This document shows, piece by piece, positions 11,731 through 42,958 of a DNA stretch of 64,000 bases. Under the pieces are notes generated by a model, which worked only from the letters and a program-made list of their open reading frames with translations, ran no database searches and was not told the origin of the DNA. Source of the stretch: Patescibacteria group bacterium (GTDB lineage: Bacteria; Patescibacteriota; Patescibacteriia; 2-02-FULL-49-11); NCBI GenBank assembly GCA_041645165.1, contig JBAZQN010000010.1, positions 102 through 64,101 on the forward strand, in the 5' to 3' direction. A program made the translations under genes and the position numbers. Within the stretch, counting starts at the first letter, position 1, and every line of letters begins with the position of its first letter.

Positions 11731-12864
11731 CTATCGAAATACTGTTTCAGGATAACATCTGCAACCTGACAATGATGAAGTACACCTGGTATAAATAGGG
11801 CCTGAAAATTCCTTCCCGCACCACTCACCATAATTACATTCACTATCAATCGTGCATACCCTACTGGGGTCCTTTTCACACTTCCATACTTCTTCACCGG
11901 ATCGAACATTTGTATAGCTCCTTGTACATTTATCAAATGGGGTACGACACCATAACGTGTAATCGTTAGTACCGTACTTACAGACCTCTCCATGCTTAAT
12001 ATGGCACCTTCGGCTCGTGCCCGACACATCGCAATACATCTGTATCATAAGACCGTCATCTCGATACTCCGGGCATCCCTGATCTTCCGCATTAACCTCA
12101 CAAGGATCACCTGGTTCAACTAATTCACAAATCCCAAGATCTCCAATTTCTTTATAACAGAAATTATAGAAAGGTGCGTCCGGAATCGAGGAATCTCTCT
12201 TAGATCTACATTCGATATTAGTCCTACATCCATCCAAGCACGCTTGTTTCTCAAAAGAACACACACAGGGCGGATTAGGACACTCGTTGCACGGCTCCCC
12301 TGTTGATTTAAACCCATTAGGAGATCCATTAGCATCAACCGTAACGCACGTATCAGCCGATGTGCCGGTGAGCGGCGAAAGCGTAGCGGGAGTTGCGCAC
12401 TTTTCCGTCGCCTTATACGCCCTGCACGGCGTGATCCACCACGCGTCATTTGAGAAAATGGTGGCAGGCTTGCCTTCGGTTGGAATGCCTTTGAGTGAAA
12501 TAATAATCCAGTTGGGCCATACCCATGCGGCAAGCAGGATGATGAATAACCCCACCACAGTGCCGGTTACCATCTTTTTGCCTTTTTCCACCTCTTCTGC
12601 CTTGCCTTGAGACATAAGAAGGCTAAATCCCCCGTAAATAAACAACGCAAGCGCAATAGCACCACAGAGCGACAGTAAAAACCTCACCCCTTTGCTTGCG
12701 ATGAGTAAAAGGTCGCACAGCGAACATGCGCCGCATGTAAAACAGTCAGTAGCTACTGCCTCTTTGGAAAAAAAGCTGTACGCCTGCGCAGAAAAAACGG
12801 AGTAACTAAACACTCCAACAATTATTAATAAGATGATAAGTATTGGTTTTCTTAAACTAGGCAT
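11731..12864 (-). CDS. Membrane protein with a VirB2/TrbC-like pilin module and a Cys-rich C-terminal ectodomain
   Basis: Helix-loop-helix AIALALFIYGGFSLLMSQGKAEEVEKGKKMVTGTVVGLFIILLAAW, then more than 40 Cys in about 250 aa. Confidence 0.45.
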   Translation of the reverse strand: MPSLRKPILIILLIIVGVFSYSVFSAQAYSFFSKEAVATDCFTCGACSLCDLLLIASKGVRFLLSLCGAIALALFIYGGFSLLMSQGKAEEVEKGKKMVTGTVVGLFIILLAAWVWPNWIIISLKGIPTEGKPATIFSNDAWWITPCRAYKATEKCATPATLSPLTGTSADTCVTVDANGSPNGFKSTGEPCNECPNPPCVCSFEKQACLDGCRTNIECRSKRDSSIPDAPFYNFCYKEIGDLGICELVEPGDPCEVNAEDQGCPEYRDDGLMIQMYCDVSGTSRRCHIKHGEVCKYGTNDYTLWCRTPFDKCTRSYTNVRSGEEVWKCEKDPSRVCTIDSECNYGEWCGKEFSGPIYTRCTSSLSGCRCYPETVFR

Positions 12865-12886
12865 AAATTAACGAAACCGCCCCTCA

Positions 12887-12955
12887 AGTCCCCTCCTTGC
12901 TAAGAGCCTGTCCCGAGCTTGACGCGGGAAGGGGATGGGGAGGTATCTCCTTAGT
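12887..12955 (-). repeat. Conserved leader element (minus orientation) immediately 5' of the 11731-12864 gene
   Basis: Reverse complement matches 6462-6515 almost exactly. Confidence 0.45.
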
Positions 12956-13035
12956 AAAAAAGATTGTCGTGCCAGAGGCAGATCAGCCCATGGCTGAAAA
13001 TTCCGATACGATAAATTAAATCCTAAAGAGCCGCC

Positions 13036-14541
13036 TCATGGGGTGATAACTTCATTATCTCCAGAATTTTGCCCACCTACCGTATATACGCCTGGCGGAC
13101 AATGCGATGACTGATGGGTTCCAAGATCCTGGCCTGACTCAAAATGCCACCACTCTTCGCAAAACCGATCTAAGCCCACTTCATTCATCTTCGCTTGGAA
13201 CTCCTTGACCACGGGACCCGTGGGCGGGGTGCCGCTAGGCGGTGTGTAAGCTCTGGTAAGCATATTGCATGCGGCGTCATTAATTACCCCTGAAGGTAAA
13301 ATGCCGCTTGATATTTCAAGGCACACGTCTACCGCATACCCTGCCTGGTGCGGCGCGTCGCATGAAGGCACTGCCGCTTTATTGCAACCTGTACAACTAT
13401 ACGGACAACTGGGAGGGGTAGGTACGCTGTAATCATAGCACCCTCGCAAGCCAGCCTGGTTCGCCATGGAGCGGTACGCCGAATTGATGACAAGCGTGAA
13501 TTTCACATTCGAGCTTTTCCAACTATTTTCTCCTTTAAGCCAATCTTCAAGCTTTTTATTATTAAGTTTCGCTATCACTTGAGACATAAGCCGCGGCGGC
13601 TGTTCCACCTGGCTATTATCAACGCGGATAGGTGCCTTGGGGAATACTGTGGGGTCCGCGATCGATAGAAAATTAGGCGACGATTCTGTCTTGGTGCACG
13701 CCTGCGGGCCGAAATTCATATTCACATTAGTCGCTTGCGATTTTACGTCTTCCAGAGTGCTCAATGCGGTATCAAACTCCACAAGACGCGGGTTGATGGT
13801 GTAAAAGAGCAGATAAGAGGTAAGCGCGATGATGAGCCCGGTGATGGCGCCCATGATGGTGCTTTTCGCGCTCGTGATTTTTTCAGGCGACCCGCCTGCC
13901 ATGAGGTACTGGAACCCGCCGATCATGATGCCAATCACCGCAAGAAGCCCTATGGACGCGATGATGAAATAATAAAGGCCGGCAATGTACTCGCCAATTG
14001 TTTTACTGCTCAAGTCAATGCTCCTCCCCGCGACAAAATCCGTGCCGGGAATAGATATTTGGGGTTTAAATTTAATTGCTTCGCGCGGTTTAGGTTCAAT
14101 ATACACTTTCAATTCGCCGCCGCCGGAAGGAACAAACGCCTGCACCGATTGTTTCACGTCCGGACACGCGCACTGGCCTGGATCTTGGTAATTGCACGCA
14201 TAGTATAAGCCATTCTGGGTTTTAACGCCTTTCACGGTTATCTCCCCTTTTACGGAACCTGCACTTACTATATTCTGCTTAGCTCCAGTATACGATTCAT
14301 AAATCAACGTTTGCCCACATTCACCTGGTTGGAGACCGCTAAAACAAATGTTTTTAACCTTATCATCTGTCTTTACGTTTTGCCCTAATAGAGCATTACT
14401 TTCAGCCGCTTGCGGATCATTAAGCTGGCACACGCAACACTGCGCGCTGGCAGCAAGGGGGAAAAAATGGATACCAACAATGCCTGTTATGAAAATTATT
14501 GAGAGAATTACCTTCTGTATCCTTAAACGGCAATATAACAT
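13036..14541 (-). CDS. Fusion protein: Cys-rich N-terminal region, VirB2/TrbC-like pilin module, and C-terminal M15 (VanY-like) peptidoglycan peptidase
   Basis: Pilin module IGIMIGGFQYLMAGGSPEKITSAKSTIMGAITGLIIALTSYLL. M15 motifs SAYRS, HQAGYAVDV, EEWWHFE. Confidence 0.6.
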   Translation of the reverse strand: MLYCRLRIQKVILSIIFITGIVGIHFFPLAASAQCCVCQLNDPQAAESNALLGQNVKTDDKVKNICFSGLQPGECGQTLIYESYTGAKQNIVSAGSVKGEITVKGVKTQNGLYYACNYQDPGQCACPDVKQSVQAFVPSGGGELKVYIEPKPREAIKFKPQISIPGTDFVAGRSIDLSSKTIGEYIAGLYYFIIASIGLLAVIGIMIGGFQYLMAGGSPEKITSAKSTIMGAITGLIIALTSYLLFYTINPRLVEFDTALSTLEDVKSQATNVNMNFGPQACTKTESSPNFLSIADPTVFPKAPIRVDNSQVEQPPRLMSQVIAKLNNKKLEDWLKGENSWKSSNVKFTLVINSAYRSMANQAGLRGCYDYSVPTPPSCPYSCTGCNKAAVPSCDAPHQAGYAVDVCLEISSGILPSGVINDAACNMLTRAYTPPSGTPPTGPVVKEFQAKMNEVGLDRFCEEWWHFESGQDLGTHQSSHCPPGVYTVGGQNSGDNEVITP

Positions 14542-14553
14542 AATACCACGGTT

Positions 14554-15426
14554 TTAAAATTCAAGCTCTACTAACCTCTCAATCTTTTTCTCCGTAATCT
14601 CTCCCGTCAAACGGTAAGAATTTATAAACAGGGCAGGTATCCCGTCAATATCAAGCGCCTGCGCCTCATCCATGCCCTGATTCACAAGATCAGTGGTCGC
14701 GCGGGTTTCTACACAGCGGTTGAATTCTTCAAGATTAAGCCCTAATTCTGATGCTATTATACCATACTTCGACGCAGATGCTCGCAGATAAGACGCAGAT
14801 TCACGCAGATCGTCGTTCATGACTTCGTCACGGGTCAATTTATCTATAAATTCCCAAAATTTACCTTGATTTTGCGCGCAACGGGCGGCAAGGGCGGCGG
14901 GGCGGGAGGCAGGATCTAAAGGATTCGGGAAATCTTTCCATACCAGATGCGCAGATGGTCGCAGATAAGACGCAGATTCACGCAGATCGTCGCGGATATA
15001 CGCAGATATTTGTTTCACCGCATCGCGGCACACTTCAACCACATGGTCGCAAAATAATACGATATTGACTGGTTCGACACCCCCCTCTTGCATCTCCCCC
15101 CTTTCTAGGGGGGAGGATATTGCTGGCAACACCGGGTCAGTGGGCAATACCGTGGGCGCAAACGGCGTATCTTCGCGCAGAGGCGCTAAAGGTTTAACCA
15201 GCGTGATGAGGGGGTCGCTAAAGGTGCCTTGCGCGAAACTGTCAGAGGCAAGCTCTGACGCTACATTTTGATTTTGGACTACTCTCTCTTGTTGATCGTC
15301 TTGAGACGACACAATGAACCCGAGCGCGCTCTTCCCAACTGCAAGCGCTCCCAAACCAAGGACGGCGAGAGAGAACAGCGTAATAGTGAGCGTGCGCGGG
15401 TGTATTTTCATAACTTTAAATCTCAA
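14554..15426 (-). CDS. DsbA-like thioredoxin-fold thiol:disulfide oxidoreductase carrying repeat-derived in-frame inserts
   Basis: DsbA-like C-terminus GIPALFINSYRLTGEI. Signal/TM N-terminus. Two direct CGCAGAT arrays (14770-14815, 14948-15010) encode DDLRESASYLR twice. G/C-tract insert at 15079-15117. Confidence 0.5.
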   Translation of the reverse strand: MRFKVMKIHPRTLTITLFSLAVLGLGALAVGKSALGFIVSSQDDQQERVVQNQNVASELASDSFAQGTFSDPLITLVKPLAPLREDTPFAPTVLPTDPVLPAISSPLERGEMQEGGVEPVNIVLFCDHVVEVCRDAVKQISAYIRDDLRESASYLRPSAHLVWKDFPNPLDPASRPAALAARCAQNQGKFWEFIDKLTRDEVMNDDLRESASYLRASASKYGIIASELGLNLEEFNRCVETRATTDLVNQGMDEAQALDIDGIPALFINSYRLTGEITEKKIERLVELEF

Positions 15427-15427
15427 A

Positions 15428-15949: not shown

Positions 15950-17251
15950 CTATTTCAGTCTAATGCGATACACTTTCTCAAACGTTTCCAAGAAAAGCGA
16001 AGAATTGTCGGGCGTAAGGTAGAGCTTCCGCACATCCTTGATAGTCTGCACTCCTTCTTCCACCGGCACCGCAAGGCGGCGATTGATGCCATTGCCCAAA
16101 TCGGTGCTCCATACGGTATATGTAATCCCCCGCGCGGATTCAGGCACGAGTCCCGCCCCTGAGGGAAGCTCATCAGGCACGGCGCAATACACGGTCACGC
16201 TGTCCTCTCCAAAAGCGCAGCGATCCACCCATGTGGAGAGCCCGAGCGCATATTGGCGCGCGCCCGTCCGGTCGCCCCCGACATCCGCCACCCAGAGCAT
16301 AGGCTGGTACCCCGCGCCCGCAAGAGTGGTGGAATAGAGCACTCTTCTGCCGTCAGGGGACCAAATACCGGAGAAGCCAGACCCTTGCACCTCAAGCGAT
16401 TTAAAATTCTCTCCCTGCATACCTATGAAAAATACTTCTTCGCGGTCAATGCCAGTCGGCTTATGGTACGTGGCGACTACTTTGTAATCCGGAGACCATT
16501 GGGGAGCGACCAGCATACCGCGGTCGCCGGTTGCCTGTACCGCTTGGGCGCCGGTCCCGTCCACATTGGAAACCACGATCCAATTATCCCTTGCGCTGCC
16601 CGTCTCCAGCTTGTAAGAAATGGCTCCCCCGTCCGACCTGAAAGACGGCGCGGTCAGGTCTTTGGGGAGCACGGCCGTTTTTTTGGTGGTAAAATCATAA
16701 TACACATTCGATCCGTCTTCATACTCTAATATAGCGCTATCGCCTTGCGGCGCCCACACCACCTCTGAAACGCCTGGGAAAGATTCGTTCGCAAGCAGCC
16801 GTTTTCCACTGCCGTCGGCATTCACGCGGTAAAATTTGGTATCGGTCGGATTATAATAGCTCAAGCCTCCGCTGGGGCTCACGTCAATATTCATAGGAAA
16901 CCCTTCCACTACCGCCTCTGTGCGCGTTTCCCTGCCGCGCGCCACGTCGTCAACCACGGGCCGATAGCCGGTGCCTGTTGTCCCCCCTGTGGGTTCTCCT
17001 CCGCCTTCAATGGGTAATCCCCCTTCCACAGGTTGCCGCACTAGCCCTCCGGGTCCTTCGCCCGCGCGCGGCAGCGCGCCCACGCCGCCCTCTGGCGGTT
17101 TTACCCCGGGCACGTTAAAAAGCCGGAAACGCCAACCAATAAAAAGAATAATGGCGGCAGTGCCGATGATGCCGAAAATAATCAAGCCGACGCCGATGAG
17201 GAAACGAATGTTAAAACGAGGCATATTCAATTGATAAATTCCAAATCCCAA
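15950..17251 (-). CDS. Membrane-anchored TolB-like beta-propeller protein
   Basis: N-terminal TM helix. Gly/Pro-rich linker. Repeated W.P.G-type blades (VWAPQGDS, QWSPDYK, IWSPDGRRV). Confidence 0.55.
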   Translation of the reverse strand: MGFGIYQLNMPRFNIRFLIGVGLIIFGIIGTAAIILFIGWRFRLFNVPGVKPPEGGVGALPRAGEGPGGLVRQPVEGGLPIEGGGEPTGGTTGTGYRPVVDDVARGRETRTEAVVEGFPMNIDVSPSGGLSYYNPTDTKFYRVNADGSGKRLLANESFPGVSEVVWAPQGDSAILEYEDGSNVYYDFTTKKTAVLPKDLTAPSFRSDGGAISYKLETGSARDNWIVVSNVDGTGAQAVQATGDRGMLVAPQWSPDYKVVATYHKPTGIDREEVFFIGMQGENFKSLEVQGSGFSGIWSPDGRRVLYSTTLAGAGYQPMLWVADVGGDRTGARQYALGLSTWVDRCAFGEDSVTVYCAVPDELPSGAGLVPESARGITYTVWSTDLGNGINRRLAVPVEEGVQTIKDVRKLYLTPDNSSLFLETFEKVYRIRLK

Positions 17252-17345: not shown

Positions 17346-18254
17346 TTAGCCGGGAAGTTTCTTCTCCTCTGGCTTTGCCGGGAGCTTAGTGGCGATCTCG
17401 GAACGATACCAGATATAAAAAACGGAAAACGTCAAGATCGGCAGAAAGCCAAGCAGCGGCACACAGTCAATTAATGTGGGCAAAAGCGACTTTATAATCC
17501 GATCCGCAAATTCCATATTCTTGCGGCCAAGATAAAAAAAAGTGCAAAACCCCCACACCACTCCGATAATCCAAGTTAAAACCTGACCCAATGAAAGCGT
17601 TCCAATGTCAATCAAATCCTTGACAAGCGCCAATGATATCAGGAATCCCCACATGAATGTCGAATGATCTTTCGCTTGTATCCCCTGCTGTTTTTTTTTG
17701 CGCTTCAAAAACGCTTTCGCTTTATTCTTTAACCCCTTTTCTTTTTTCCATGCCTGCCGCTGCTTGTCATTCAAACGCTTGAAAGCCGCCTCTCTCTCCG
17801 CCATCATGCCCATGCCGCGATTGATTCCCACCCCGCTCTTTGCCAAGGCTCCAAAATTTTTTCCTAATACACTTCCCGCATTCCCGCCCGCTAATATCCC
17901 CAAAGCCCCCACTCCCAGCCTACGTCCTAAACCGCCCTGAGCCATACTAGCCACCCTCTTTTCGTTCTGCTTATCACGCGCAAGCTTCTGCGCATACTGC
18001 TGTTGTTGTTGTTCCTTATCGCGCTCTGCCTTGCGCTGGCGCATATTATCCAGAAATCCCTGCTTTTGACCTTCCGGCTGGCGTTGTCCGGTCGCGGCGT
18101 ATTGCCTATCATCTTTATTCTTCGCTTGCGTGCCGCCTGCTCCGCCAACAAATCCCCCACTACCAGAGAAAGCACCTCTCCCTTGATACGCATCCTTCAT
18201 TGCCTTCTTCATTGCTTTGCTGGGAATATTCGATTTTGCTTCCGTATCGGCCAT
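17346..18254 (-). CDS. Hypothetical membrane protein (Gly/Lys-rich N-terminal half, C-terminal TM helices)
   Basis: 302-aa ORF in the minus-strand block. C-terminal hydrophobic helices. Confidence 0.4.
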   Translation of the reverse strand: MADTEAKSNIPSKAMKKAMKDAYQGRGAFSGSGGFVGGAGGTQAKNKDDRQYAATGQRQPEGQKQGFLDNMRQRKAERDKEQQQQQYAQKLARDKQNEKRVASMAQGGLGRRLGVGALGILAGGNAGSVLGKNFGALAKSGVGINRGMGMMAEREAAFKRLNDKQRQAWKKEKGLKNKAKAFLKRKKKQQGIQAKDHSTFMWGFLISLALVKDLIDIGTLSLGQVLTWIIGVVWGFCTFFYLGRKNMEFADRIIKSLLPTLIDCVPLLGFLPILTFSVFYIWYRSEIATKLPAKPEEKKLPG

Positions 18255-35732: not shown

Positions 35733-36455
35733 TTATTTTACAATAAACGCCTCATCTTTCACATCCGTAAACACATATTTCTCCGCGGTCATGTACGGCA
35801 CGAACTGCGATTCTTGTTTATCAATAGTAAAGATGATCTCTCCTGCTTTCAGAGGCTTCACCTTGATCCCTGAAAGCAGCCCGCTGCCCGCAAATCCTCC
35901 CTCGCCTCCTTTTGCCCCGGGACCGGGAATAAAGCGCACGATTTCTATCCGCCCTGTAGTCTCAAGCGCACCCGGAGGATTTGCTTCCATAGGCAGGCTT
36001 GTGCCCTTCGCATTTAAACCCTTAAACTCAACCTGCTTCGGATCATAGGTGAGCACCGCTCGCACGACCGTAATATGCGTATCATAGGTATCAAAACGAA
36101 TTTCAACCAATCCTTCTTTTCCCACGCTTAAACTCGTCTTCCCTTCAGGAAGCGATAGGGAAATCGCGCCTTTCAAATCCGGCCGCACGATGGGCGCTGG
36201 TGGTGATTGTCTTTGCGCGGGGAGGGGTGATGGCGGCGCCGGTTTTGGTGGTTTTGGCGTGAAATAATTCACCGCGAGCGCCACTACTACTACCCCCGCC
36301 AGCGCTCCAAGCAGCACAAGAAGGCGGGAAGAAGAACGAGGCTTTGCATCTGTTGATGGAACATTAGTTTGAGAATCTTGTGGAGACATATGATTGATGT
36401 TAATTTTTATAAATAAATGCAAAGTTTCATTGTAGCGTGGCAGCTTGTCTGCCAC
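35733..36455 (-). CDS. Hypothetical membrane-anchored protein
   Basis: The annotated N-terminus is translation of the three-stem repeat. The true start is probably the MSPQDSQTN Met near 36389. Confidence 0.4.
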   Translation of the reverse strand: MADKLPRYNETLHLFIKININHMSPQDSQTNVPSTDAKPRSSSRLLVLLGALAGVVVVALAVNYFTPKPPKPAPPSPLPAQRQSPPAPIVRPDLKGAISLSLPEGKTSLSVGKEGLVEIRFDTYDTHITVVRAVLTYDPKQVEFKGLNAKGTSLPMEANPPGALETTGRIEIVRFIPGPGAKGGEGGFAGSGLLSGIKVKPLKAGEIIFTIDKQESQFVPYMTAEKYVFTDVKDEAFIVK

Positions 36456-36536: not shown

Positions 36537-39500
36537 TCACTGTTGGTACCCGCATGTTCCTCCCGTATCGCAATCATTATCCGTAATACATGGACGCGGA
36601 TTCCCCACAGGAGAGTTAGAACAATGCTTCGCGGTGATAATGGTATCTGGCCCGCCGCCGGTCTCATGGAGCCCCACGCATCCTGCTTCAGGATCAAGCT
36701 CGCCTTTGCAGTCGCTTAATTGGCTCTGGATTTTATCTTTCGGCACATAGAGGAAATCGCACGCAGACACCGAGCAGGTGCCACCGGGCCCTGGCGGGGT
36801 TGCCGTAGTGCTGCATTGCGCGTCCGTGGTACACGCAAACGCTCCGTCTTCGCTGCATGCTTTCTGCCCATACACGAGCGCCCTTGAACACCCCTCCGGC
36901 AGCCGCGGATCCTGATACTCGGTGCAGGTGGACACTTGCGGTTTGCAGCGCGCCACTGCGTTCGAGCAAAGGCCTTGGCTGCCCGGGCGGCTAAAATCCA
37001 TGCAGTCTGCGTCGCTCAAACAGCGGTTCTTCACTTTCGGATACGTCACGCCTCCTGATATCGCATCACGCACGGCTCTGCCGCCTATGCAAAATCCTAA
37101 CGGACGGCAGGTGCCGCCTTCAGGGCATTGCGTCGTCGCGTTCGTGCAACTCCGATACGGCGCGTTCGAACATACGCTTGTCACAGTAGGGCAAGGAGTG
37201 GAGGTGCCGAGCTGATACCACGTCGTGACAGTGCCCTCAGTCTCATACTCGCAGGTGTAGCCGGTCGGATCTTTGAATGAAGGAAAGGAGCTATTATCAG
37301 TCCTAGTCAATGTCGCACAATACTCTTCAGGGAGTGTGCAGAGACTCGTGATCTCCCCGATCTTACCGATCTCATCGCTGAACGTGTCAGGATCAACCAT
37401 GACAATAGTGTCGGCATACGTGCTGGTGGCCACTCCATTCGCGGAATTCCAAAACGCCACACTCGCCTGCCCCAGGAGCGTGCAGCCTGCCTGATTTGCA
37501 CTGCATGCCGCGTCTTGAGAAGGGATAAGGTAGGCAAGCGCATCAGCGGGCACGGTTACTATTGATGCAGGGCTATTGAAGCGATCCGTGGCATTGGAGT
37601 TATAGAACGTCTGCTCGGCTGGATTACTCGAATTCTGCGTGTCAATGAGCGCTTCGCATCCCACGAACCGTTCAGGGCACAGCGTAGAAAACTTCTTGAA
37701 ATAGTATGTCTTCTCTGTCCCTCCTTGACGGTACGCCGCGCAGTTGAGCTGGGCACCCGCTACCGTAGTTATGGGGGGAACTTGACTATTTTGATCGCAC
37801 GTCTCTGGCGTATACCAACTATCTTTAATCGCATACACCTGCGCGGTCTGCACTATTACATTATCAATATAGGTAGTGCTTCCTACCGTTATCCTCACTT
37901 GGGCAGGTGATGCGCTTGTTGCAGTAAATGGACCAAGCGTATACGACTTCCATGACGTGGTAACACTGTCCGCATAGGACGCAGGAGTGGCCACCGCTGC
38001 CTGCCCAGTGGAATCCACAAGCGAAGCGGAGATAGTGCTTGCAGAGTCAGCGCGCGCCCAGAATTTTACATTATAGAGCCTGCCTGTTTCCACGGAAAAC
38101 CCAGGCCGATACGCACTCGCGCTCCCCGCCGTACCTCCCGCCATTTTAAGTGAATGGTTATTGAGCACGGCAGCTTCATTGGAAATAGATAGCGCCGTTC
38201 CAGCAGCCGGGGACCATGGCTCATACGACCCGCTCTCAAAGGTATCAGAAAAAAGCTGCTGCACATTGCTGCCGTCGCCGCGGCGGTATTCGCGGCACCC
38301 CGCGGATGATGGCGCACATGTGGCACTATAATAGGGAATTGCTTGATACACACAGTGGCCATTTGCATCCGCTTCTCCCCGGTGTTGCGCGCACCAGCCG
38401 CCCGCATCTGGCAACGTGCGCCGCAGAGGGTGGCAATCGTCAGATGCTATAATCACTTTGGAGAAATAGCGATAGTAATAAGTAAGATTGCTATCAATGA
38501 ACTCTCGGCAGTCAAGATCAGGGTTGAGCGAGTTAAAGTCATTCTGGCAGTTGATGCCATCAGGGCTCCGCAAGGAATCTACTATTTTTGCTCCAGTGAC
38601 CGCGGGCTCGCTTGTCGCGCCTCCGCTCGGGATCAATGTCCACACCTTCAGCTGGAATCCAACCGTGTCAGACCCCTCCCAGGTGTAATAAGTTGCTTCG
38701 CCGCTCCCGGGAAGTTCGCATTGTTTCAATTCTGTATAATACTCCTTGCCTTCGCCGCCTTGGGCAACCTTGTCGAGATTGGTAAATTCATCGCACCCGG
38801 CGTCTTGCGCCGGGCATGAATGCGCAGTGGCGGGAATAAATTGGGCTACCGGAGCAGGAGGCATATTGGTGATAGGAATACCAGCTTCAAAATTCGTCTG
38901 CATTTGCTCATACTTCTTATATCCCACACATTCTGCCGGGCACTCATCATTCCAATTGCTCACCGTATTGGTTGCCGGAGCAATAGTAGCCATGGTCGGT
39001 TTTGCCGGAATGCCTATCTGCAGCTCGGTAGGATCAAGCGGGGTATAGAGGGCGCAACCCGCATACATACCCTCTTGGCCTACAGGTCCCATGCACGATT
39101 GCGCGGTATTATTAAGATAAACCGATTCTGCTTCTCGTGGAGCTCCTTGTTGCGGCGGCGTGGGCGTGCCGCGATACGTATCAGTAGGAGGATCCGAGGT
39201 TACATCTTGTAACACATCTGCATATTCTTGAGCGGTAAGTAAATGCTTTGCCTCATCCCTATGCCGAAGACGAATATAATCTTTGCACCCCACTGCATTC
39301 GGCTCTTTGCACGCGGCCTCTGCCATGGTAAGCGCTGATTGGTTCAGGAAATAATTATCCGGCGCAGCCACGCTGTCCACCCATCCGCCGGCATCCCTGC
39401 GTCTCGCGTACCTGCGGCACCCTTCAGACGCCACTCTCGTGCACCCTTGCGCATCCGTAGTATTGAGGAGAAAGCTTACGGTCTGATCTGATCCTGCCTT

Positions 39501-41561
39501 TTTAAGCTCTAGGCATGACGCATACTGCGCGGGGCACGACTCGCCCAAAGACCACACTTGCTTTTCCGTCGCGCAATACCCATACGCCAAGCACCCTGTA
39601 GCTCCCCCTTCCACGATGCAGGAGCGCTGATTCGTGCACACGTTCTCGCGGCTGATGGCAGGGGACGCGATATCAGGAGGGCAGAGAATCGTGCCGTTCC
39701 CGTTCGTGTCAGTGTCGCAGATGGGTAAAGTGGCGAGCGTTACCTTCAGGTCCGCTTCTCCCGGCCCTTCCCGCACGCACTTGGTAAGAGGCGCTTTCAG
39801 AATCCAATTGGGATCTACGAGCCTGCAATATGGAGACAAAAGCCCGCCATTTTGTCCGCACTTGTCATGCGCGTCGAGAAGTTCGCCTAATGTCACGCGC
39901 GTTTGCGCAAAATTCTTGATATAGAGCGCAGCAAGCTCCCAGCCTACGGGCACGATGCGGTACTTGCGCAAAATCACGATGGAACGGTAAGGGATTCCTG
40001 ATTGCCAGTCCGGTTGCGAACCGCCTTGTTCAAAACCAAAGGTAAGATTGCGGGAAAGAAGCCCTTGGCACTTGGGACAGCCCCCTGTCCCTACAGGCTC
40101 CACTGCTTCTCGCACTGACAAATGGGGATTCACGTCAATCGCCAACCTGAACAGTTCCGAAATCACGCGGTTCTCCGGGCCAGTGGTATTGGATGAAAGC
40201 TCCGAGAGCAGATCCACCGCGCTGTCAGTCGTGAAATCTGTCTTCATAATTTCGGCAAATGCGAGCTGCGCGCCCGCGGTAAATCCAATGAGGCCGCTTG
40301 AAGGGCCGTAACTTGACAAAGACCGGTCAGTCGCAGGATTGAATCCGCCGCTGGTAATGCGCTTGAATAGTTTGCTTACTAAAGTGTTCGTGAACACCTT
40401 AAATGCATCAGCGACCGCGTCGCCGGTGAAGAGGAGCATAGGACCATATGGCTTCTTAGTGAGCGCCTCTCTGGTCGACTCGGATACTAGTGTCGTCGGC
40501 GTCTTGAGCTCACCTGTTATTAAATCTTTCACTGGATTAAATCCTTCCCCCTCTTTCCGTTCTAGCTCCTTCGCCGTACGCGCTTTCGTCTGCGCGCTAT
40601 ACCCTTCTGCCACGATGGAGAGCACCGCGCCGATGTCATTCTCCGCAGGATTGAAGTATGTGGCAAACTTGGGCAGGTCTTTGAGCTTCAACTGCTTATA
40701 GTCAGTGCGGAAAATATCCAAACCATTGATGCGCACTGATGTCCGCGGCAGATTTTTCCTGATCTGGCTAAAGGTGCACAAAGGTTTTGAAGGCGCCAGG
40801 ATTTCACGCGCGGTAAGTTTTATTTTCGCTTCAATGTCTACGGATATGGGAGAGCAGAGGGTAAGCTTCTGATGGAGCGTACCGCGGAGTTTAGCTTTAC
40901 TCGCATTACTTTTATCACGCGCAGCCTGCGTCTTTTTATTTTTTATCTGACATTGCATGAGTTTTTCTGCCACTGCCTCGTATTCAGAACTACCAAAGCT
41001 AAGACATAAACCATCACCCTGTAATTCGCTACAACCAGCATTCCCTTGCTCATCAATTTTCCATTTTCCTTGGCAACAGTACTTCGCACACTCCTCTGGC
41101 ATTTCTGGCTTAGTAAGCTCATCAATCGCCACATCAACGCCAGTGGTTAAAAATATTCCCAACGCTTCGTCTTTCGCATCGTCCAAATACTTCTTCCACC
41201 CTTGAGTGATGAACGCGGGCTTCTGGCCTTGCCCTCCGCTTCCTAAATAGCTAGCATAGTCGTAGGCCACCTTATTCAAAAAATACTGCAAACCGCTTTT
41301 ATACGCCACCGCCACTACGGTCTTCAAGGCTTTGTCAATAACTCTCCAGATTGTATCCAAAATAGTCTTCTTTTCTTGAGCGACATCTACTACGACAGCC
41401 TGTGCATTGACATAAGGGATATGTAAAAAAGGAACGACAGCAAAACTCATCGTCACACACAGGAGGGCAATAATCGCGAACCATTTACGACGAGCCACCG
41501 TTCGTTCAATCTTGCAGATTGAACGATTGTTTTTATCGTCGAACAAACCGGTAGTGCTCAT
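36537..41561 (-). CDS. Giant (1674-aa) Cys-rich secreted or surface protein
   Basis: Signal/TM segment WFAIIALLCVTMSFAVVPFL. Cys-rich throughout. The N-terminal 20 codons are translation of a REP unit. Confidence 0.6.
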   Translation of the reverse strand: MSTTGLFDDKNNRSICKIERTVARRKWFAIIALLCVTMSFAVVPFLHIPYVNAQAVVVDVAQEKKTILDTIWRVIDKALKTVVAVAYKSGLQYFLNKVAYDYASYLGSGGQGQKPAFITQGWKKYLDDAKDEALGIFLTTGVDVAIDELTKPEMPEECAKYCCQGKWKIDEQGNAGCSELQGDGLCLSFGSSEYEAVAEKLMQCQIKNKKTQAARDKSNASKAKLRGTLHQKLTLCSPISVDIEAKIKLTAREILAPSKPLCTFSQIRKNLPRTSVRINGLDIFRTDYKQLKLKDLPKFATYFNPAENDIGAVLSIVAEGYSAQTKARTAKELERKEGEGFNPVKDLITGELKTPTTLVSESTREALTKKPYGPMLLFTGDAVADAFKVFTNTLVSKLFKRITSGGFNPATDRSLSSYGPSSGLIGFTAGAQLAFAEIMKTDFTTDSAVDLLSELSSNTTGPENRVISELFRLAIDVNPHLSVREAVEPVGTGGCPKCQGLLSRNLTFGFEQGGSQPDWQSGIPYRSIVILRKYRIVPVGWELAALYIKNFAQTRVTLGELLDAHDKCGQNGGLLSPYCRLVDPNWILKAPLTKCVREGPGEADLKVTLATLPICDTDTNGNGTILCPPDIASPAISRENVCTNQRSCIVEGGATGCLAYGYCATEKQVWSLGESCPAQYASCLELKKAGSDQTVSFLLNTTDAQGCTRVASEGCRRYARRRDAGGWVDSVAAPDNYFLNQSALTMAEAACKEPNAVGCKDYIRLRHRDEAKHLLTAQEYADVLQDVTSDPPTDTYRGTPTPPQQGAPREAESVYLNNTAQSCMGPVGQEGMYAGCALYTPLDPTELQIGIPAKPTMATIAPATNTVSNWNDECPAECVGYKKYEQMQTNFEAGIPITNMPPAPVAQFIPATAHSCPAQDAGCDEFTNLDKVAQGGEGKEYYTELKQCELPGSGEATYYTWEGSDTVGFQLKVWTLIPSGGATSEPAVTGAKIVDSLRSPDGINCQNDFNSLNPDLDCREFIDSNLTYYYRYFSKVIIASDDCHPLRRTLPDAGGWCAQHRGEADANGHCVYQAIPYYSATCAPSSAGCREYRRGDGSNVQQLFSDTFESGSYEPWSPAAGTALSISNEAAVLNNHSLKMAGGTAGSASAYRPGFSVETGRLYNVKFWARADSASTISASLVDSTGQAAVATPASYADSVTTSWKSYTLGPFTATSASPAQVRITVGSTTYIDNVIVQTAQVYAIKDSWYTPETCDQNSQVPPITTVAGAQLNCAAYRQGGTEKTYYFKKFSTLCPERFVGCEALIDTQNSSNPAEQTFYNSNATDRFNSPASIVTVPADALAYLIPSQDAACSANQAGCTLLGQASVAFWNSANGVATSTYADTIVMVDPDTFSDEIGKIGEITSLCTLPEEYCATLTRTDNSSFPSFKDPTGYTCEYETEGTVTTWYQLGTSTPCPTVTSVCSNAPYRSCTNATTQCPEGGTCRPLGFCIGGRAVRDAISGGVTYPKVKNRCLSDADCMDFSRPGSQGLCSNAVARCKPQVSTCTEYQDPRLPEGCSRALVYGQKACSEDGAFACTTDAQCSTTATPPGPGGTCSVSACDFLYVPKDKIQSQLSDCKGELDPEAGCVGLHETGGGPDTIITAKHCSNSPVGNPRPCITDNDCDTGGTCGYQQ
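41497..41561. repeat. REP unit at the 5' end of the giant gene
   Basis: CGTTCGTTCAATCTTGCAGATTGAACGATTGTTTTTATCGTCGAACAAACCGGTAGTGCTCAT. Confidence 0.7.
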
Positions 41562-41673: not shown

Positions 41674-41693
41674 CATTGATTTGAAGGACGAAA

Positions 41694-42191
41694 TTAAACA
41701 GGAGTAACCACGATCCTCGTCGGATACCTGCTTGCCGACGACCACCGCCAATCTTCTGGCGCATACACGTATCCTTTGCGCACGGGATTGTTATGAATAT
41801 ACTGCATCTTCTGTCTTAAAAATTCCTCTGACTCAACGAGTTCCGGATAATTTCCGCTCTGCCAGAACTGATATCCTCGCTCGGCCGCGAATATCCTCAA
41901 TACACTCGGTTCGGTTGCGATAATGTTCTTCTGCAATTCTTTCGATAAAAACGTCTTCATGTCCCTGATCACGCCGATGAGATCGCGGGCTGAACCGATG
42001 AAATGAAGGTGATTGAGCATAAAGACGAACGCGTAGATTCTTAATTGTTTCTGCTTTTGGCAATATACGAAACTATCTTCTAAGATTTCAAAGCGATGAT
42101 GGCGGTCAAAGATATAATACCAGTTTTTAACGGTAAACGTCATGAAGTAGACGCCGTCCTTTCCTGCTCTCGGTATTCGTACTGATGGCAT
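41694..42191 (-). CDS. REP-associated tyrosine transposase (RAYT; IS200/IS605 TnpA-like Y1 HUH enzyme)
   Basis: HUH motif NHLHFI. C-terminal YIHNNPVRKGYVYAPEDWRWSS. Flanked by inverted REP hairpins. Confidence 0.7.
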   Translation of the reverse strand: MPSVRIPRAGKDGVYFMTFTVKNWYYIFDRHHRFEILEDSFVYCQKQKQLRIYAFVFMLNHLHFIGSARDLIGVIRDMKTFLSKELQKNIIATEPSVLRIFAAERGYQFWQSGNYPELVESEEFLRQKMQYIHNNPVRKGYVYAPEDWRWSSASRYPTRIVVTPV

Positions 42192-42217
42192 ACTTCATAC
42201 CGCTCATTAAACGGGTG

Positions 42218-42275
42218 GTTCAATCTGCAAGATTGAACCAACGTAATACTATCTGCGTTCTTCTGCTTCTACTAG
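42218..42275. repeat. REP hairpin (loop GCA, inverted relative to 41653) plus ATCTGCG/TCTGCTTC repeats
   Basis: GTTCAATCTGCAAGATTGAACCAACGTAATACTATCTGCGTTCTTCTGCTTC. Confidence 0.75.
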
Positions 42276-42277
42276 AG

Positions 42278-42958
42278 TTAAGGTTGTGGTTGCTGCTGCA
42301 CGGTCTGTTCCTGTTCTTTGAGCGTATCCTGATACATCTGCATTAAAGTAGCGTCGTCAATCTGTTTGAGCTGGTCTTCTGTCACCTGCCCAGTAGCCAA
42401 AAGGAGCGTCCTCAACTCTTGGGGCGTCATTTTTGAAAGGTCAGGAGGAGGCGCCGCAGTTTCATTTCCCTGTGCAGGGGGAATAAGTTCATTGAATTGC
42501 GGCGTGGAACCTACGGGCGCAGGCTGGCCTGCCTGCGCAGGCAGGCCTGTGCGGCATTCCGTGCCTTTCGGGCAATTGGGATCGTTATTCGAATCAATTT
42601 CAACCTTGTCGGTATACGTATCGCCGTCAGAATCTTTCAAGTAAGGCGAAGTGCCGTACACATTCAGTTCATCATAATCAGAAAGCCCGTCGCTGTCAGT
42701 GTCTTTCGTCTTTAGTTCCTCATTATTCGTTGAAAACTGGGCAGTTACCTGTGGCGCGCTCACAGCGCCGAATTGATTCTCTTGGCCTGCCTGCGCAGGC
42801 GGGCCTCCAGAAAGCCGCAGATCGCGCCAAATCTTAAATCCTCCCACGCCAAGGGCAAGAAACCCAAAAAATAAAATAGACCCAAATAGCACTTTTGGGT
42901 TCATTCCTTTTGATTCCACTTCTTCGCTTTTATTTTGTGGCAAAGATGAGTCAGGCAT
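42278..42958 (-). CDS. Membrane-anchored protein with thrombospondin-type-3/dockerin-like calcium-binding aspartate repeats
   Basis: DTDSDGLSDYDE..DSDGDTYTD. N-terminal TM helix. GLPAQAGQ occurs twice. Confidence 0.45.
   Translation of the reverse strand: MPDSSLPQNKSEEVESKGMNPKVLFGSILFFGFLALGVGGFKIWRDLRLSGGPPAQAGQENQFGAVSAPQVTAQFSTNNEELKTKDTDSDGLSDYDELNVYGTSPYLKDSDGDTYTDKVEIDSNNDPNCPKGTECRTGLPAQAGQPAPVGSTPQFNELIPPAQGNETAAPPPDLSKMTPQELRTLLLATGQVTEDQLKQIDDATLMQMYQDTLKEQEQTVQQQPQP

What the first reader, a model, noticed from the sequence alone, without database searches (positions are those of the whole stretch)
11731..42958. 31-kb co-directional island encoding a Gram-positive-type T4SS-like apparatus, a DsbA-like protein, a TolB-like propeller and three giant surface proteins
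Every gene across about 31 kb is on the minus strand. The block encodes PrgI/VirB3-like, a split VirB4 ATPase, a VirB6-like 1195-aa protein with a very long coiled coil, and two VirB2/TrbC-like pilin-module proteins, one fused to an M15 peptidoglycan peptidase. It also encodes two Cys-rich giants of 1649 and 1674 aa and a DsbA-like oxidoreductase, which such cysteine-rich exported proteins would need. No relaxase, VirD4 coupling protein or VirB11 is visible in the window, so this looks less like a classical conjugation module and more like a surface or contact apparatus. That is the kind of system CPR episymbionts are thought to use for host attachment. The island is also unusually dense in REP-type elements, and the RAYT gene sits inside it.
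Basis: partly seen in the sequence, partly recalled or inferred. Interest (0 to 1): 0.8.

Follow-up and report, generated by a model that had tools for sequence, protein, structure and literature searches.

The report
Patescibacteria chromosomal type IV secretion locus
This 31-kb gene block is the chromosomal type IV secretion-like locus already described for ultrasmall Patescibacteria (CPR), here in its ABY1-class form, so it is a well-resolved example of a known kind rather than a new system.

Summary
All genes from 11731 to 42958 are on the minus strand. Profile searches support PrgI/VirB3, a VirB4 ATPase, a separate TrsD-like VirB4 N-domain protein, an extended VirB6, two VirB2-type pilin-module proteins (one fused to an M15 peptidase), a PD40 propeller, a thioredoxin-fold protein and two Cys-rich giants. 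No relaxase, coupling protein, VirB11 or integrase is in the window. A REP-associated transposase (RAYT) with flanking REP hairpins lies inside.

It is not a horizontally acquired island. The order LeuRS-Sua5-KsgA-p226-giant-giant-VirB6-p487-p401-PrgI-TrsD-VirB4-p224-pilin-propeller-DsbA-pilin recurs in related ABY1-type genomes. This is the relaxase-less Patescibacteria T4SS described in 2023-2025.

Corrections:
- The "split VirB4" is a conserved TrsD+VirB4 pair.
- The DsbA-like protein here has VEVC instead of CxxC.
- The "very long coiled coil" is a charged helical region without significant heptad periodicity.

New detail: the giants belong to a family of about 1,000 clusters that sat directly upstream of the T4SS core in all six other contexts examined.

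Aside: 4x ATCTGCG arrays are inserted in-frame in genes.

The parts
42278..42958 (-). p226: membrane-anchored protein with TSP3/dockerin-like Ca-binding repeats; first gene of the conserved block
   Evidence: One TM helix. Weak TSP3_bac hit, 1e-3. Orthologue directly upstream of the giant in L083, L085 and L086 at 35-63% identity.
43014..43042 (-). Promoter-like site (TTGACA-17-TATATT with TG, 11 of 12) between ksgA and p226
   Evidence: This is a hint only, because the scans as a whole are near the number expected by chance.
41694..42191 (-). REP-associated tyrosine transposase (RAYT); a lineage-specific selfish insert
   Evidence: NF047646 99.9 bits against cutoff 80. HLH (HUH-type) motif at residue 61. 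Inverted REP hairpins at 41653-41673 and 42218-42238. No RAYT hit in any of the 80 related loci.
36537..41561 (-). G1674: giant Cys-rich exported protein with a conserved N-terminal domain (about residues 230-603) and a CBM_4_9 domain
   Evidence: 73 Cys and an N-terminal signal/TM. CBM_4_9 34.3 bits against cutoff 25.9. N-terminal domain family: 1,202 cluster representatives at E<=1e-3, mostly proteins of 1,300-3,600 aa. It precedes VirB6 in all 6 other contexts examined. No known fold found. A REP copy at 41496-41570 overlaps the annotated start.
35733..36455 (-). p240: small TM-anchored protein between the giants
   Evidence: One TM helix. No Pfam hit. A weak orthologue sits in the same position in L084.
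30729..35678 (-). G1649: second giant Cys-rich surface protein
   Evidence: 79 Cys and an N-terminal TM. Weak Cohesin and CBM hits. In 26 of 36 loci with a VirB6 gene and some upstream sequence, a Cys-rich ORF of at least 300 aa lies upstream of VirB6 and runs off the locus start. In 18 of these it matches G1649, usually around residues 890-1040. 29-32% identical orthologues in L083-L085.
26826..30413 (-). Extended VirB6-like polytopic membrane protein with a charged C-terminal extension of about 850 aa
   Evidence: Eight hydrophobic segments within residues 1-343. Homologues P0063 and P0119 pass the Pfam TrbL cutoff. AF2 mean pLDDT 80; Foldseek top four PDB hits are R388 TrwI/VirB6, prob 0.99 and 0.85. 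hhalign against pCF10 PrgH gives P=0.02. Present in 26 of 30 loci with a full upstream flank.
25350..26813 (-). p487: conserved soluble protein of unknown function
   Evidence: No TM. No Pfam, NCBIfam or PDB match. Syntenic in 29 of 80 loci and in L083, L084 and L086.
24527..25306 (-). 23S_rRNA_IVP-family gene; a selfish insert inside the operon
   Evidence: PF05635 4.4e-12. Present in only 1 of 80 related loci.
23278..24483 (-). p401: conserved soluble protein of unknown function
   Evidence: No TM and 0 Cys. No Pfam, NCBIfam or PDB match. Syntenic in 74 of 80 loci.
22627..23058 (-). PrgI/VirB3-like membrane protein
   Evidence: PF12666 36.2 bits against cutoff 27. Two TM helices. Present in 76 of 80 loci.
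21764..22450 (-). TrsD-like protein, equivalent to a VirB4 N-terminal domain encoded as a separate polypeptide
   Evidence: Aligns to positions 96-262 of the Mbov_0397 VirB4 model (4.3e-8), to TrsD NF041427 (4.7e-5) and to CD1110 positions 2-104. PF26593 TraC-like on the identical public protein. Present in 79 of 80 loci.
19750..21660 (-). VirB4 ATPase (MPF_FATA / CD1110 type)
   Evidence: NF045971 353.7 bits against cutoff 325, model positions 183-730. P-loop_TraG 3e-29. Walker A and B motifs intact. 67-74% identical across 80 species-level genomes.
19200..19484 (-). GIY-YIG nuclease gene; a selfish insert with a second copy at 15568-15852
   Evidence: PF01541 2e-16 and 3e-16. 300-nt repeat, 81% identical. 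Present in 5 of 80 loci.
18430..19104 (-). p224: bitopic protein, candidate VirB8-like component
   Evidence: N-terminal TM helix. 4 of 29 orthologues match NTF2_YvbJ, best 4e-5. hhalign against pCF10 PrgL gives P=0.012 over the C-terminal domain. Lies immediately downstream of VirB4 in 71 of 80 loci. No PDB sequence match. Status: inconclusive.
17346..18254 (-). p302: poorly conserved membrane protein
   Evidence: Three C-terminal TM helices. Orthologues only in L003 and L004. Not a pilin module.
15950..17251 (-). TM-anchored PD40-type beta-propeller protein
   Evidence: Partial TIGR02800 match, 1.6e-9, 37 bits against cutoff 343. PD40 in 11 of 24 orthologues, best 4e-9. The top 10 PDB profile hits are all TolB, at E about 0.12.
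14554..15426 (-). DsbA-like thioredoxin-fold protein, TM-anchored, with a degenerate active site
   Evidence: Thioredoxin_4 4.4e-13. VEVC replaces CPxC; the cis-Pro and a second Cys pair are conserved; 20 of 26 orthologues keep CxxC. Two in-frame 4x ATCTGCG arrays at 14773-14810 and 14950-14987.
13036..14541 (-). Extended VirB2-type pilin-module protein fused to an M15 (LAS) peptidoglycan peptidase
   Evidence: PF18895 32.8 bits against cutoff 26.6, residues 179-247. Profile of the C-terminal domain hits VanX at 8.6e-7, plus Ply500 and LdcB. Catalytic motifs are conserved. 19 Cys.
11731..12864 (-). Second extended pilin-module protein with a Cys-rich C-terminal domain
   Evidence: PF18895 23.4 bits, below cutoff. 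hhalign to the pilin-module profile gives 93.7%, 1.9e-7. 31 Cys.
11491..11618 (.). REP doublet (REPIN-like). Further REP hairpins at 18370-18390, 30440-30460, 30596-30616 and 41504-41524

Best explanation
The region is the chromosomal, vertically inherited type IV secretion-like locus of a Patescibacteria (CPR) bacterium of the ABY1 lineage. This is the relaxase-less descendant of monoderm (MPF_FATA) conjugation machinery already described for the phylum.

Shown here:
- A VirB4 ATPase with intact Walker motifs, partnered by a separately encoded TrsD-like N-domain.
- A PrgI/VirB3 membrane protein.
- An extended VirB6.
- Two VirB2-type pilin hairpins embedded in long Cys-rich exported proteins, one ending in an M15 cell-wall peptidase.
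- A membrane-anchored PD40 propeller and a thioredoxin-fold protein.
- Two giant Cys-rich, CBM-bearing exported proteins encoded directly upstream of VirB6.
- Conservation of this order across related genomes.

Inferred mechanism:
- VirB4/TrsD, docked on PrgI, VirB6 and probably the VirB8-like p224, powers extraction and assembly of the pilin-module proteins into a surface filament or channel.
- The fused M15 domain opens peptidoglycan locally, taking the VirB1 role.
- The propeller and the thioredoxin-fold protein act as extracytoplasmic assembly factors.
- The giants act as the adhesive, host-contacting part, or as cargo.
- The machine serves contact with a host cell rather than plasmid transfer.

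The RAYT/REP, GIY-YIG and IVP genes are selfish passengers specific to this lineage.
For: - Component identities.
- Taxon: VirB4 is 67-74% identical to Falkow-, Komeili-, Kuenen-, Veblen- and Magasanikbacteria MAGs. Magasanikbacteria are filed under ABY1 in the PMC12102498 supplement; ABY1 membership of the others is from my own knowledge.
- Core synteny: p401-PrgI-TrsD-VirB4-p224 is present in 71-79 of 80 loci. VirB6 is within 10 kb in 26 of 30 loci with a full upstream flank. Pilin, propeller and DsbA all occur together in 18 of 32 loci with at least 9.5 kb downstream.
- Full order from LeuRS to VirB4 or VirB6 is conserved where the giants are only 28-32% identical.
- Cys enrichment is specific to the exported pilin-module proteins (median 4.1%) and giants (3.1%), against 0.5% or less in the cytoplasmic and membrane core parts.
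- No relaxase, T4CP, VirB11 or integrase in the window.
- Housekeeping flanks (ksgA, recG, a ComF-type domain gene) match the ABY1 context reported in PMC12102498.
- Literature: the T4SS and its pilin array are essential for epibiotic growth of a Saccharibacterium, without a recognisable relaxase or coupling protein (PMC10633639). A phylum-wide survey reports TrsD, PrgI, VirB6 and VirB2 arrays and few relaxases (PMC12102498).
Against: - Function is not tested by anything here.
- VirB6 and VirB8 assignments rest on weak or transitive evidence: Foldseek E=0.04 with TM-score 0.4, and hhalign P about 0.01-0.02.
- The thioredoxin-fold protein lacks CxxC in this genome, so it may be inactive, or structural only.
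- A coupling protein or relaxase could be encoded outside the 64-kb window. PMC12102498 finds VirD4-like genes mostly far from virB4.
- Gene adjacency of the giants does not prove they are part of the machine.
- Whether proteins of 377-501 aa carrying a pilin hairpin can polymerise like VirB2 is unknown.
Confidence: 0.75

Rival explanations
1. DNA-uptake (competence) machine analogous to the Helicobacter pylori ComB T4SS. That system also works without a relaxase, VirD4 or VirB11. Here it would import host or environmental DNA for a bacterium that cannot make nucleotides.
For: - No relaxase, T4CP or VirB11 in the window.
- recG and a small ComF-type phosphoribosyltransferase-domain gene lie next to the locus.
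- PMC12102498 notes that ABY1 T4SS loci commonly sit with comF, recG and radA, and suggests functional coordination.
- VirB4 gives a weak hit to the archaeal DNA-import ATPase CedB, 2.7e-12.
Against: - In Southlakia, deleting comEC abolished competence but did not affect viability, while the T4SS is essential. Its essential role there is therefore not ComEC-dependent DNA uptake (PMC12857230).
- The VirB4 best match is the conjugative CD1110 family.
- Giant CBM-bearing adhesin-like proteins and a peptidoglycan peptidase fit cell contact better.
- The ComB comparison comes from my own knowledge and was not tested here.
Confidence: 0.12
2. Ordinary conjugative or mobilising T4SS whose relaxase, oriT and coupling protein are encoded elsewhere in the genome.
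For: - VirB4, TrsD and PrgI are homologous to conjugation proteins of monoderm plasmids and ICEs.
- VirD4-like genes exist in many Patescibacteria far from virB4 (PMC12102498).
- Only 64 kb were inspected.
Against: - The chromosomal position between housekeeping genes is conserved across genomes with deep divergence.
- No integrase, relaxase or T4CP in the window.
- Relaxases were found in only 103 Patescibacteria genomes, and only 15 lay close to virB4.
- VirB4 at 67-74% identity across species indicates vertical inheritance under strong constraint.
Confidence: 0.06
3. Only the core is a T4SS (VirB6, p487, p401, PrgI, TrsD, VirB4, p224 and the pilins). The giants, p226, p240, the propeller and the thioredoxin-fold protein would be independent cell-surface genes that merely share a conserved neighbourhood and strand.
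For: - The pilin-propeller-DsbA module is absent within 10 kb in 14 of 32 loci, and in L025 and L037 it is on the opposite strand.
- In L086 the DsbA-like gene and a pilin-module gene sit on the other side of LeuRS.
- The giants have Sec-type N-termini, so they need no T4SS for export.
- The same neighbourhood also keeps unrelated housekeeping genes in order.
Against: - A G1674-family giant lies directly upstream of VirB6 in all 6 other contexts examined. One is a Kerfeldbacteria contig where the upstream flank is different, with type IV pilus genes instead of LeuRS-KsgA.
- Propeller and DsbA are interleaved between two pilin-module genes.
- Cys-richness is shared by the pilin-module proteins and the giants.
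Confidence: 0.2

Closest known systems
Patescibacteria-clade T4SS (Southlakia epibionticum SEML1_0006-0019; survey of 2,474 virB4 genes in PMC12102498)
   Same: - MPF_FATA-type VirB4, TrsD, PrgI/VirB3, VirB6 and VirB2-like pilin genes near virB4.
- No relaxase or coupling protein nearby.
- Chromosomal location near ksgA and recG, as reported for ABY1.
   Different: - The pilin modules here sit inside 377-501-aa Cys-rich proteins, and one carries the peptidase.
- PD40-propeller and thioredoxin-fold genes are interleaved with them.
- Two giant Cys-rich proteins precede VirB6.
- None of these accessory features is mentioned in the main text of PMC12102498 or in its held supplements.
Monoderm conjugative T4SS of the pGO1/pIP501 (trsC-trsD-trsE) and pCF10 (prgH-I-J-K-L) types
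   Same: - Gene order VirB3-like, TrsD, VirB4, followed by a bitopic VirB8-like candidate.
- A cell-wall hydrolase is part of the set.
- No outer-membrane core complex.
   Different: - No relaxase, T4CP or LPXTG adhesins.
- VirB2-type pilin modules are present.
- The hydrolase is an M15 peptidase fused to a pilin module, rather than a lytic transglycosylase/CHAP protein.
- VirB6 is 1195 aa against 266 aa for PrgH.
F-type (MPF_F) T4SS accessory set: thioredoxin-fold TrbB and TraF plus Cys-rich TraN, TraU and TraH
   Same: - A T4SS locus that encodes its own thioredoxin-fold protein next to Cys-rich extracytoplasmic components.
- TrbB is described as a disulfide isomerase/chaperone of the F T4SS (PMC11315126 abstract).
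- From my own knowledge, F TraF has the thioredoxin fold without CxxC, like the window protein.
   Different: - No sequence homology was shown.
- F is a diderm system with a periplasm.
- The giants are far larger than TraN and carry CBM domains.
Extended VirB6 proteins of Rickettsiales
   Same: A polytopic VirB6 core followed by a very large hydrophilic C-terminal extension, a class described in PMC12857230.
   Different: The extension here is a K/E-rich helical region with no detectable similarity to those, and the lineage is unrelated.
REPtron (RAYT gene flanked by REP sequences, with REP/REPIN copies dispersed)
   Same: - RAYT passes the equivalog cutoff.
- It is flanked by inverted REP hairpins.
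- Further REP singlets and doublets lie in intergenic gaps.
   Different: - All copies seen in the window lie inside the T4SS block.
- One copy overlaps the annotated start of a giant gene.

Membership tests
Patescibacteria-clade T4SS (MPF_FATA-derived) | VirB4 ATPase of the monoderm (CD1110/MPF_FATA) type | tested here: met
   NF045971 353.7 bits against cutoff 325. Walker A and B intact.
Patescibacteria-clade T4SS (MPF_FATA-derived) | Separate TrsD-like protein next to virB4 | tested here: met
   TrsD NF041427 at 4.7e-5, below its curated cutoff. VirB4 N-terminal region matched at 4.3e-8. PF26593 TraC-like on the identical public protein. Conserved in 79 of 80 loci.
Patescibacteria-clade T4SS (MPF_FATA-derived) | PrgI/VirB3 homologue | tested here: met
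   PF12666 36.2 bits against cutoff 27.
Patescibacteria-clade T4SS (MPF_FATA-derived) | VirB6 homologue | tested here: met
   Not met directly: the window protein has no Pfam hit. Met transitively: homologues at 43% identity pass the TrbL cutoff. Met by fold: the top four PDB matches are TrwI/VirB6, prob 0.99 and 0.85, E 0.04-0.2.
Patescibacteria-clade T4SS (MPF_FATA-derived) | VirB2-like pilin genes near virB4 | tested here: met
   PF18895 above cutoff for one protein. hhalign 1.9e-7 for the other.
Patescibacteria-clade T4SS (MPF_FATA-derived) | VirB8-like bitopic component | tested here: inconclusive
   NTF2-like hits in 4 of 29 orthologues. hhalign against PrgL P=0.012. No PDB sequence match.
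Patescibacteria-clade T4SS (MPF_FATA-derived) | No relaxase or coupling protein associated with virB4 | tested here: met
   None among the ORFs scanned in the 64-kb window. The rest of the genome was not available.
Conjugative element (ICE or plasmid) | Relaxase, T4CP and integrase/excision functions; variable insertion site | tested here: not met
   None found. The chromosomal context is conserved across distant genomes.
Conjugative element (ICE or plasmid) | oriT | not testable with these tools
   No relaxase family is available to define an oriT.
DsbA-type thiol oxidase | Thioredoxin fold with a conserved cis-Pro | tested here: met
   Thioredoxin_4 4.4e-13. P264 is invariant.
DsbA-type thiol oxidase | CxxC active site | tested here: not met
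   The window protein has VEVC where 20 of 26 orthologues have C-x-x-C.
DsbA-type thiol oxidase | Re-oxidising partner (DsbB or VKOR) | not tested
   No such Pfam hit among the ORFs scanned in the window. The whole genome was not available.
TolB (Tol-Pal system) | Full-length TolB with N-terminal domain plus six-bladed PD40 propeller, working with Pal/TolA | tested here: not met
   Only a partial propeller match, 37 bits against cutoff 343. The N-terminus is a TM anchor. It shares PD40 repeats but is not a TolB orthologue.
Peptidase M15 / LAS zinc peptidases | Zn-ligand and catalytic motifs (H-x-x-G-x-A-x-D; E-x-W-H; S-x-Y-R-S) and profile similarity | tested here: met
   Motifs conserved in 5 sequences. 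Profile against PDB: VanX 8.6e-7, Ply500 9.6e-6, LdcB 1.3e-4. The Pfam hit on the single sequence is weak, 1.7e-3.
REPtron (RAYT + REP) | HUH/Y1 RAYT flanked by inverted REPs, with dispersed REP copies | tested here: met
   NF047646 99.9 bits against cutoff 80. Flanking inverted hairpins and further REP sites, against 0 expected by chance.
ComB-type DNA-uptake T4SS | Dependence of transformation on the T4SS; ComB-specific subunits | not testable with these tools
   The only evidence is contextual: recG and a ComF-type domain gene are adjacent.

The most novel reading that the evidence does not exclude
The giant Cys-rich proteins may be integral distal parts or dedicated cargo of the ABY1 T4SS. 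They belong to an uncharacterised family of about 1,000 sequence clusters, defined by a conserved N-terminal domain of about 370 aa with no recognisable fold. In all six other contexts examined, a member is encoded directly upstream of VirB6. On this reading they are assembled together with the domain-bearing pilins, a PD40 propeller and a thioredoxin-fold factor. That would be a monoderm T4SS architecture with a giant host-contacting module, which has no described counterpart.
Probability: 0.35. Interest if true: 0.65.

Novelty: new member of a known kind. Interest (0 to 1): 0.4.

Why it matters
What Patescibacteria T4SSs do is an open question. They are essential for epibiotic growth in the one cultivated model, and they lack the parts needed for conjugation. 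This window adds no new kind of system. It does give a clean ABY1-class parts list and three testable leads:

- A giant-protein family is tightly linked to the T4SS core.
- Pilin modules are fused to extracellular domains, including a cell-wall peptidase.
- A locus-encoded thioredoxin-fold protein has lost its catalytic cysteines in some lineages, which recalls TraF and TrbB of F plasmids.

These narrow down what to image, express or co-fold when asking how these bacteria engage their hosts.

Tried and rejected
- **G1674 N-terminal 620 aa, AF2 with 17 sequences.** Mean pLDDT 57, pTM 0.31. Only residues 450-590 are confident, and Foldseek against PDB gave nothing below E=0.9. No fold assignment.
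- **PDB profile searches.**
  - p224: no VirB8 hit.
  - p401: no hits at all.
  - p487: only short spurious helices.
  - Single-sequence M15 domain: nothing. The five-sequence profile then worked.
- **Coiled coil in VirB6.**
  - A crude heptad score found nothing.
  - 3.5-residue periodicity gave z=1.5 against shuffles.
  - Profile hits to dynactin and SMC coiled coils are probably compositional.
- **Paralogy.** BLAST found none between the two giants, nor between the giants and the pilin-module proteins.
- **p302 as a third pilin.** Rejected: hhalign probability 0.1%.
- **Promoter and terminator scans.** Near the number expected by chance, apart from one 11-of-12 promoter-like site upstream of p226.
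- **Mobile-island idea.** Rejected on synteny and composition.
- **Pseudogenised (frameshifted) VirB4.** Rejected, because TrsD and VirB4 are separate genes of constant size in 79 of 80 loci.

Full report
**1. Layout**

The window has an unbroken run of minus-strand genes from 10406 to 48104. The finding's coordinates, 11731-42958, are the part of that run that is not housekeeping. To the right lie KsgA (43046-43903), Sua5 (44094-44822) and LeuRS (44985-48104). To the left lie an AbiEii toxin gene and, on the plus strand, recG. GC content inside the block (0.46-0.55) overlaps that of the flanks (0.39-0.52), so there is no compositional island.

**2. Component identities**

The T4SS core is supported by profiles:
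- PrgI/VirB3: PF12666, 36.2 bits against a cutoff of 27.
- VirB4: P-loop_TraG 3e-29. NCBIfam "VirB4-like conjugal transfer ATPase, CD1110 family" gives 353.7 bits against a cutoff of 325, covering model positions 183-730. Walker A is ATSGAGKS and Walker B is ILVIDE.
- The 228-aa ORF upstream of VirB4 aligns to the missing N-terminal part of VirB4 models (Mbov_0397 positions 96-262 at 4.3e-8; CD1110 positions 2-104). It also aligns to TrsD/TraD (4.7e-5).

It is not a disruption, however. TrsD and VirB4 are separate genes of constant size in 79 of 80 related loci. TrsD next to virB4 is reported as the most abundant T4SS component in Patescibacteria (PMC12102498).

**3. VirB6**

The 1195-aa protein has about eight hydrophobic segments in residues 1-343 and no Pfam hit of its own. 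Three independent but individually weak lines support a VirB6 assignment:
- Homologues at about 43% identity (P0063, P0119) pass the TrbL/VirB6 gathering cutoff.
- An AF2 model of residues 1-420 is confident (mean pLDDT 80, pTM 0.70). Among 350,542 PDB chains, its four best matches are all R388 TrwI/VirB6 chains: probabilities 0.99 and 0.85, E 0.04-0.2, about 290 aligned columns, TM-score about 0.4.
- hhalign of the family profile against pCF10 PrgH gives P=0.02 over almost all of PrgH.

The C-terminal 850 residues are K/E/R/D/Q-rich (40-58%) and poor in Pro and Gly between about 400 and 950. The segment just after the last TM helix carries net positive charge (6 K+R against 3 D+E in its first 60 residues). 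By the positive-inside rule this suggests a cytoplasmic location, which is inference. Heptad (3.5-residue) periodicity is not above shuffles (z=1.5). "Very long coiled coil" is therefore unconfirmed. "Extended VirB6", a class noted in PMC12857230, is the better description.

**4. Pilin modules and the peptidase**

- The 501-aa protein has a PF18895 T4SS_pilin hit above cutoff at residues 179-247.
- The 377-aa protein scores below cutoff. It nevertheless contains the same two-helix module by hhalign against a 27-sequence module profile (93.7%, 1.9e-7).
- Both have cleavable-looking signal peptides, and both are Cys-rich: 19 and 31 Cys.
- In the related loci I found 42 such proteins. Almost all are 300-590 aa long, and most have 10-30 Cys. 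"Extended, domain-bearing pilins" are therefore the rule in this lineage.
- The C-terminal domain of the 501-aa protein carries the LAS/M15 motifs SAYRS, HQAGYAVD and EEWWH. These are conserved in four orthologues. Their profile hits VanX (8.6e-7), the Ply500 L-Ala-D-Glu peptidase, LdcB and VanY-type carboxypeptidases.

Given the signal peptide and the two-helix hairpin, both the N- and C-terminal domains should be extracytoplasmic (inference). That fits a peptidoglycan peptidase acting in the VirB1 role.

**5. Propeller and thioredoxin-fold protein**

The 433-aa protein has an N-terminal TM anchor. It gives a partial match to the TolB propeller model (1.6e-9, 37 bits against a cutoff of 343). 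PD40 repeats are detected in 11 of 24 orthologues, and TolB is the top PDB profile hit at non-significant E. It is a PD40 propeller, not a TolB orthologue.

The 290-aa protein is a Thioredoxin_4/DSBA-fold protein. Alignment with 26 orthologues shows an invariant cis-Pro and a conserved second Cys pair. In the window, however, the CPxC active site reads VEVC. Six orthologues are also degenerate (SPLC, CPYS, SGYS) and 20 keep CxxC. The window gene also carries two in-frame repeat insertions that are absent from all orthologues. A chaperone-like role is equally possible. The analogy is the CxxC-less TraF and the isomerase TrbB of F-type T4SSs (TrbB from PMC11315126; TraF from my own knowledge).

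**6. Giants**

- G1649 and G1674 have 79 and 73 Cys, and N-terminal TM or signal segments.
- G1674 has a CBM_4_9 domain above cutoff. G1649 has weak cohesin and CBM hits.
- They are not detectable paralogues.
- The N-terminal 600 residues of G1674 are its most conserved part. They define a large family: 1,202 representatives of 50%-identity clusters at E<=1e-3, and 995 at E<=1e-10. Nearly always the domain is at the N-terminus of proteins of 1,300-3,600 aa. The few that are named are "hypothetical" or "dockerin/carbohydrate-binding domain-containing" Patescibacteria proteins.
- In all six other genomic contexts examined, the giant lies directly upstream of the VirB6-like gene and the T4SS core (L083-L086, L207, L208). 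This includes a Kerfeldbacteria contig whose upstream flank carries type IV pilus genes instead of LeuRS-KsgA.
- In the 80 VirB4-centred loci, 26 of the 36 that have a VirB6 gene and some upstream sequence show a Cys-rich ORF of at least 300 aa upstream of VirB6, running off the locus start.
- No fold could be assigned to the N-domain.

**7. Synteny and taxon**

VirB4 is 67-74% identical to genes in Falkow-, Komeili-, Kuenen-, Veblen- and Magasanikbacteria MAGs. Magasanikbacteria are filed under ABY1 in the PMC12102498 supplement. ABY1 membership of the others is from my own knowledge.

Frequencies in the 80 loci:

| Feature | Present in |
|---|---|
| TrsD | 79 of 80 |
| PrgI | 76 of 80 |
| p401 | 74 of 80 |
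| p224 | 71 of 80 |
| VirB6 within 10 kb | 26 of 30 with a full upstream flank |
| Pilin + propeller + DsbA together | 18 of 32 with at least 9.5 kb downstream |

Cys content is high only in the exported pilin-module proteins (median 4.1%) and the giants (3.1%). It is 0.5% or less in VirB4, VirB6, p224 and p401.

The ksgA, recG and ComF-type neighbours match what PMC12102498 reports for ABY1. No relaxase, VirD4/TcpA, VirB11 or integrase appears among the ORFs scanned.

**8. Selfish passengers**

- The 165-aa ORF is a RAYT: NF047646, 99.9 bits against a cutoff of 80. It is flanked by inverted REP hairpins (GTTCAATCTTGCAGATTGAAC).
- All REP hairpin sites of this family lie between 11491 and 42238, with none expected by chance and none elsewhere in the window.
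- Two GIY-YIG genes (81% identical over 300 nt) and a 23S_rRNA_IVP gene also sit inside the operon. They occur in only 5 and 1 of the 80 related loci.
These are lineage-specific insertions and not part of the apparatus.

**9. Comparison with what is known**

A Gram-positive-like T4SS with pilin arrays, and without a recognisable relaxase or coupling protein, is essential for epibiotic growth of Southlakia epibionticum (PMC10633639). It was surveyed across the phylum in 2025 (PMC12102498). It is discussed as a new T4SS branch in a 2025 review (PMC12857230). The window is a member of that kind.

Some features are not mentioned in the survey's main text or in its held supplements:
- the conserved giant-protein family;
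- the propeller and thioredoxin pair;
- the pilin-peptidase fusion;
- the extended size of the pilin-module proteins.

These are refinements of a known system and not a new one.

**10. Verdict**

- Identity as a Patescibacteria T4SS locus: about 0.95.
- The mechanism given (a contact or surface apparatus, with the giants as the host-facing part): about 0.6, and inferential.
- Interest: 0.4.

Noticed in passing
window 14773-14810(-), 14950-14987(-), 8970-9008(-), 9460-9497(+), 11632-11669(+); metagenome loci L088-L206: Arrays of four ATCTGCG heptamers at 10-11-10 nt spacing (36 heptamers against 10.5 expected) lie in-frame inside the DsbA-like gene and recG. The pattern has exact matches in at least 119 metagenome contigs. 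About half of those arrays pair with an inverted partner to form a palindromic element of about 90 nt, in which the heptamers are conserved but the spacers are not complementary. The arrays have no stop codon in any frame and occur in all frames. They look like a MITE-like family tolerated inside coding sequence, comparable to Rickettsia palindromic elements. I found no paper describing it.
   Followed up: partly
window 7560-10328 (+), insert at about nt 9010-9460: RecG carries a PDDEXK_3 nuclease domain (aa 490-604) between its helicase lobes. The insert is flanked by an inverted pair of the ATCTGCG arrays. The same recG::PDDEXK_3 plus array arrangement occurs in L124, L186 and L188 at 55-63% identity.
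   Followed up: partly
window 44985-48104 (-); L083, L085, L086, L207: LeuRS contains a Ser_hydrolase (alpha/beta hydrolase) domain inserted at aa 429-587. L083 has a similar hydrolase insert, L085 has a NUDIX domain and L207 a Ham1p-like domain within the LeuRS gene product, and L086 has none. This looks like lineage-variable domain insertion in an essential synthetase.
   Followed up: no
window 15525-15824 and 19157-19456; 11010-11354; 24527-25306: Two GIY-YIG nuclease genes (81% identical repeat), a third degenerate GIY-YIG ORF and a 23S_rRNA_IVP-family gene are inserted between T4SS genes. They are absent from almost all orthologous loci.
   Followed up: partly
window 11215-11724 (-) and 41496-41570: The 169-aa ORF called as a gene in the public record is built from REP and ATCTGCG repeat sequence, so it is probably spurious. 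A 75-nt REP-containing repeat (three copies) overlaps the annotated start of the 1674-aa gene, so its first 25 or so residues are probably not real.
   Followed up: partly
window 7201, 15897, 22586, 30646, 44070, 44916, 53311 (each about 37 nt): AT-rich AAATTGAAAATTG-type repeats recur in intergenic gaps across the whole window, often just upstream of minus-strand genes. They may be promoter or UP-like elements, and they are not specific to the T4SS block.
   Followed up: no
window 8704-8787, 15420-15503, 23113-23154, 25574-25650, 43912-44013: A second palindromic repeat family centred on GCGGGATCCCGC, and a third (GTCATCCCGGGCTTGACCCGGGATCCAGAAA at 7428, 15526, 19158, 44401), are dispersed through the window. 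The latter abuts both GIY-YIG copies.
   Followed up: no
window 61758-62351 within ORF 61343-62425 (-): Three tandem 198-nt repeats (two of them identical) lie inside a 360-aa ORF with no Pfam match. The ORF is flanked by several perfect 27-39-nt inverted repeats at 61213-61345 and 62574-62926.
   Followed up: no
window 10406-11050 (-): An AbiEii-type nucleotidyltransferase toxin gene lies directly next to the T4SS block. I did not identify an AbiEi antitoxin partner.
   Followed up: no
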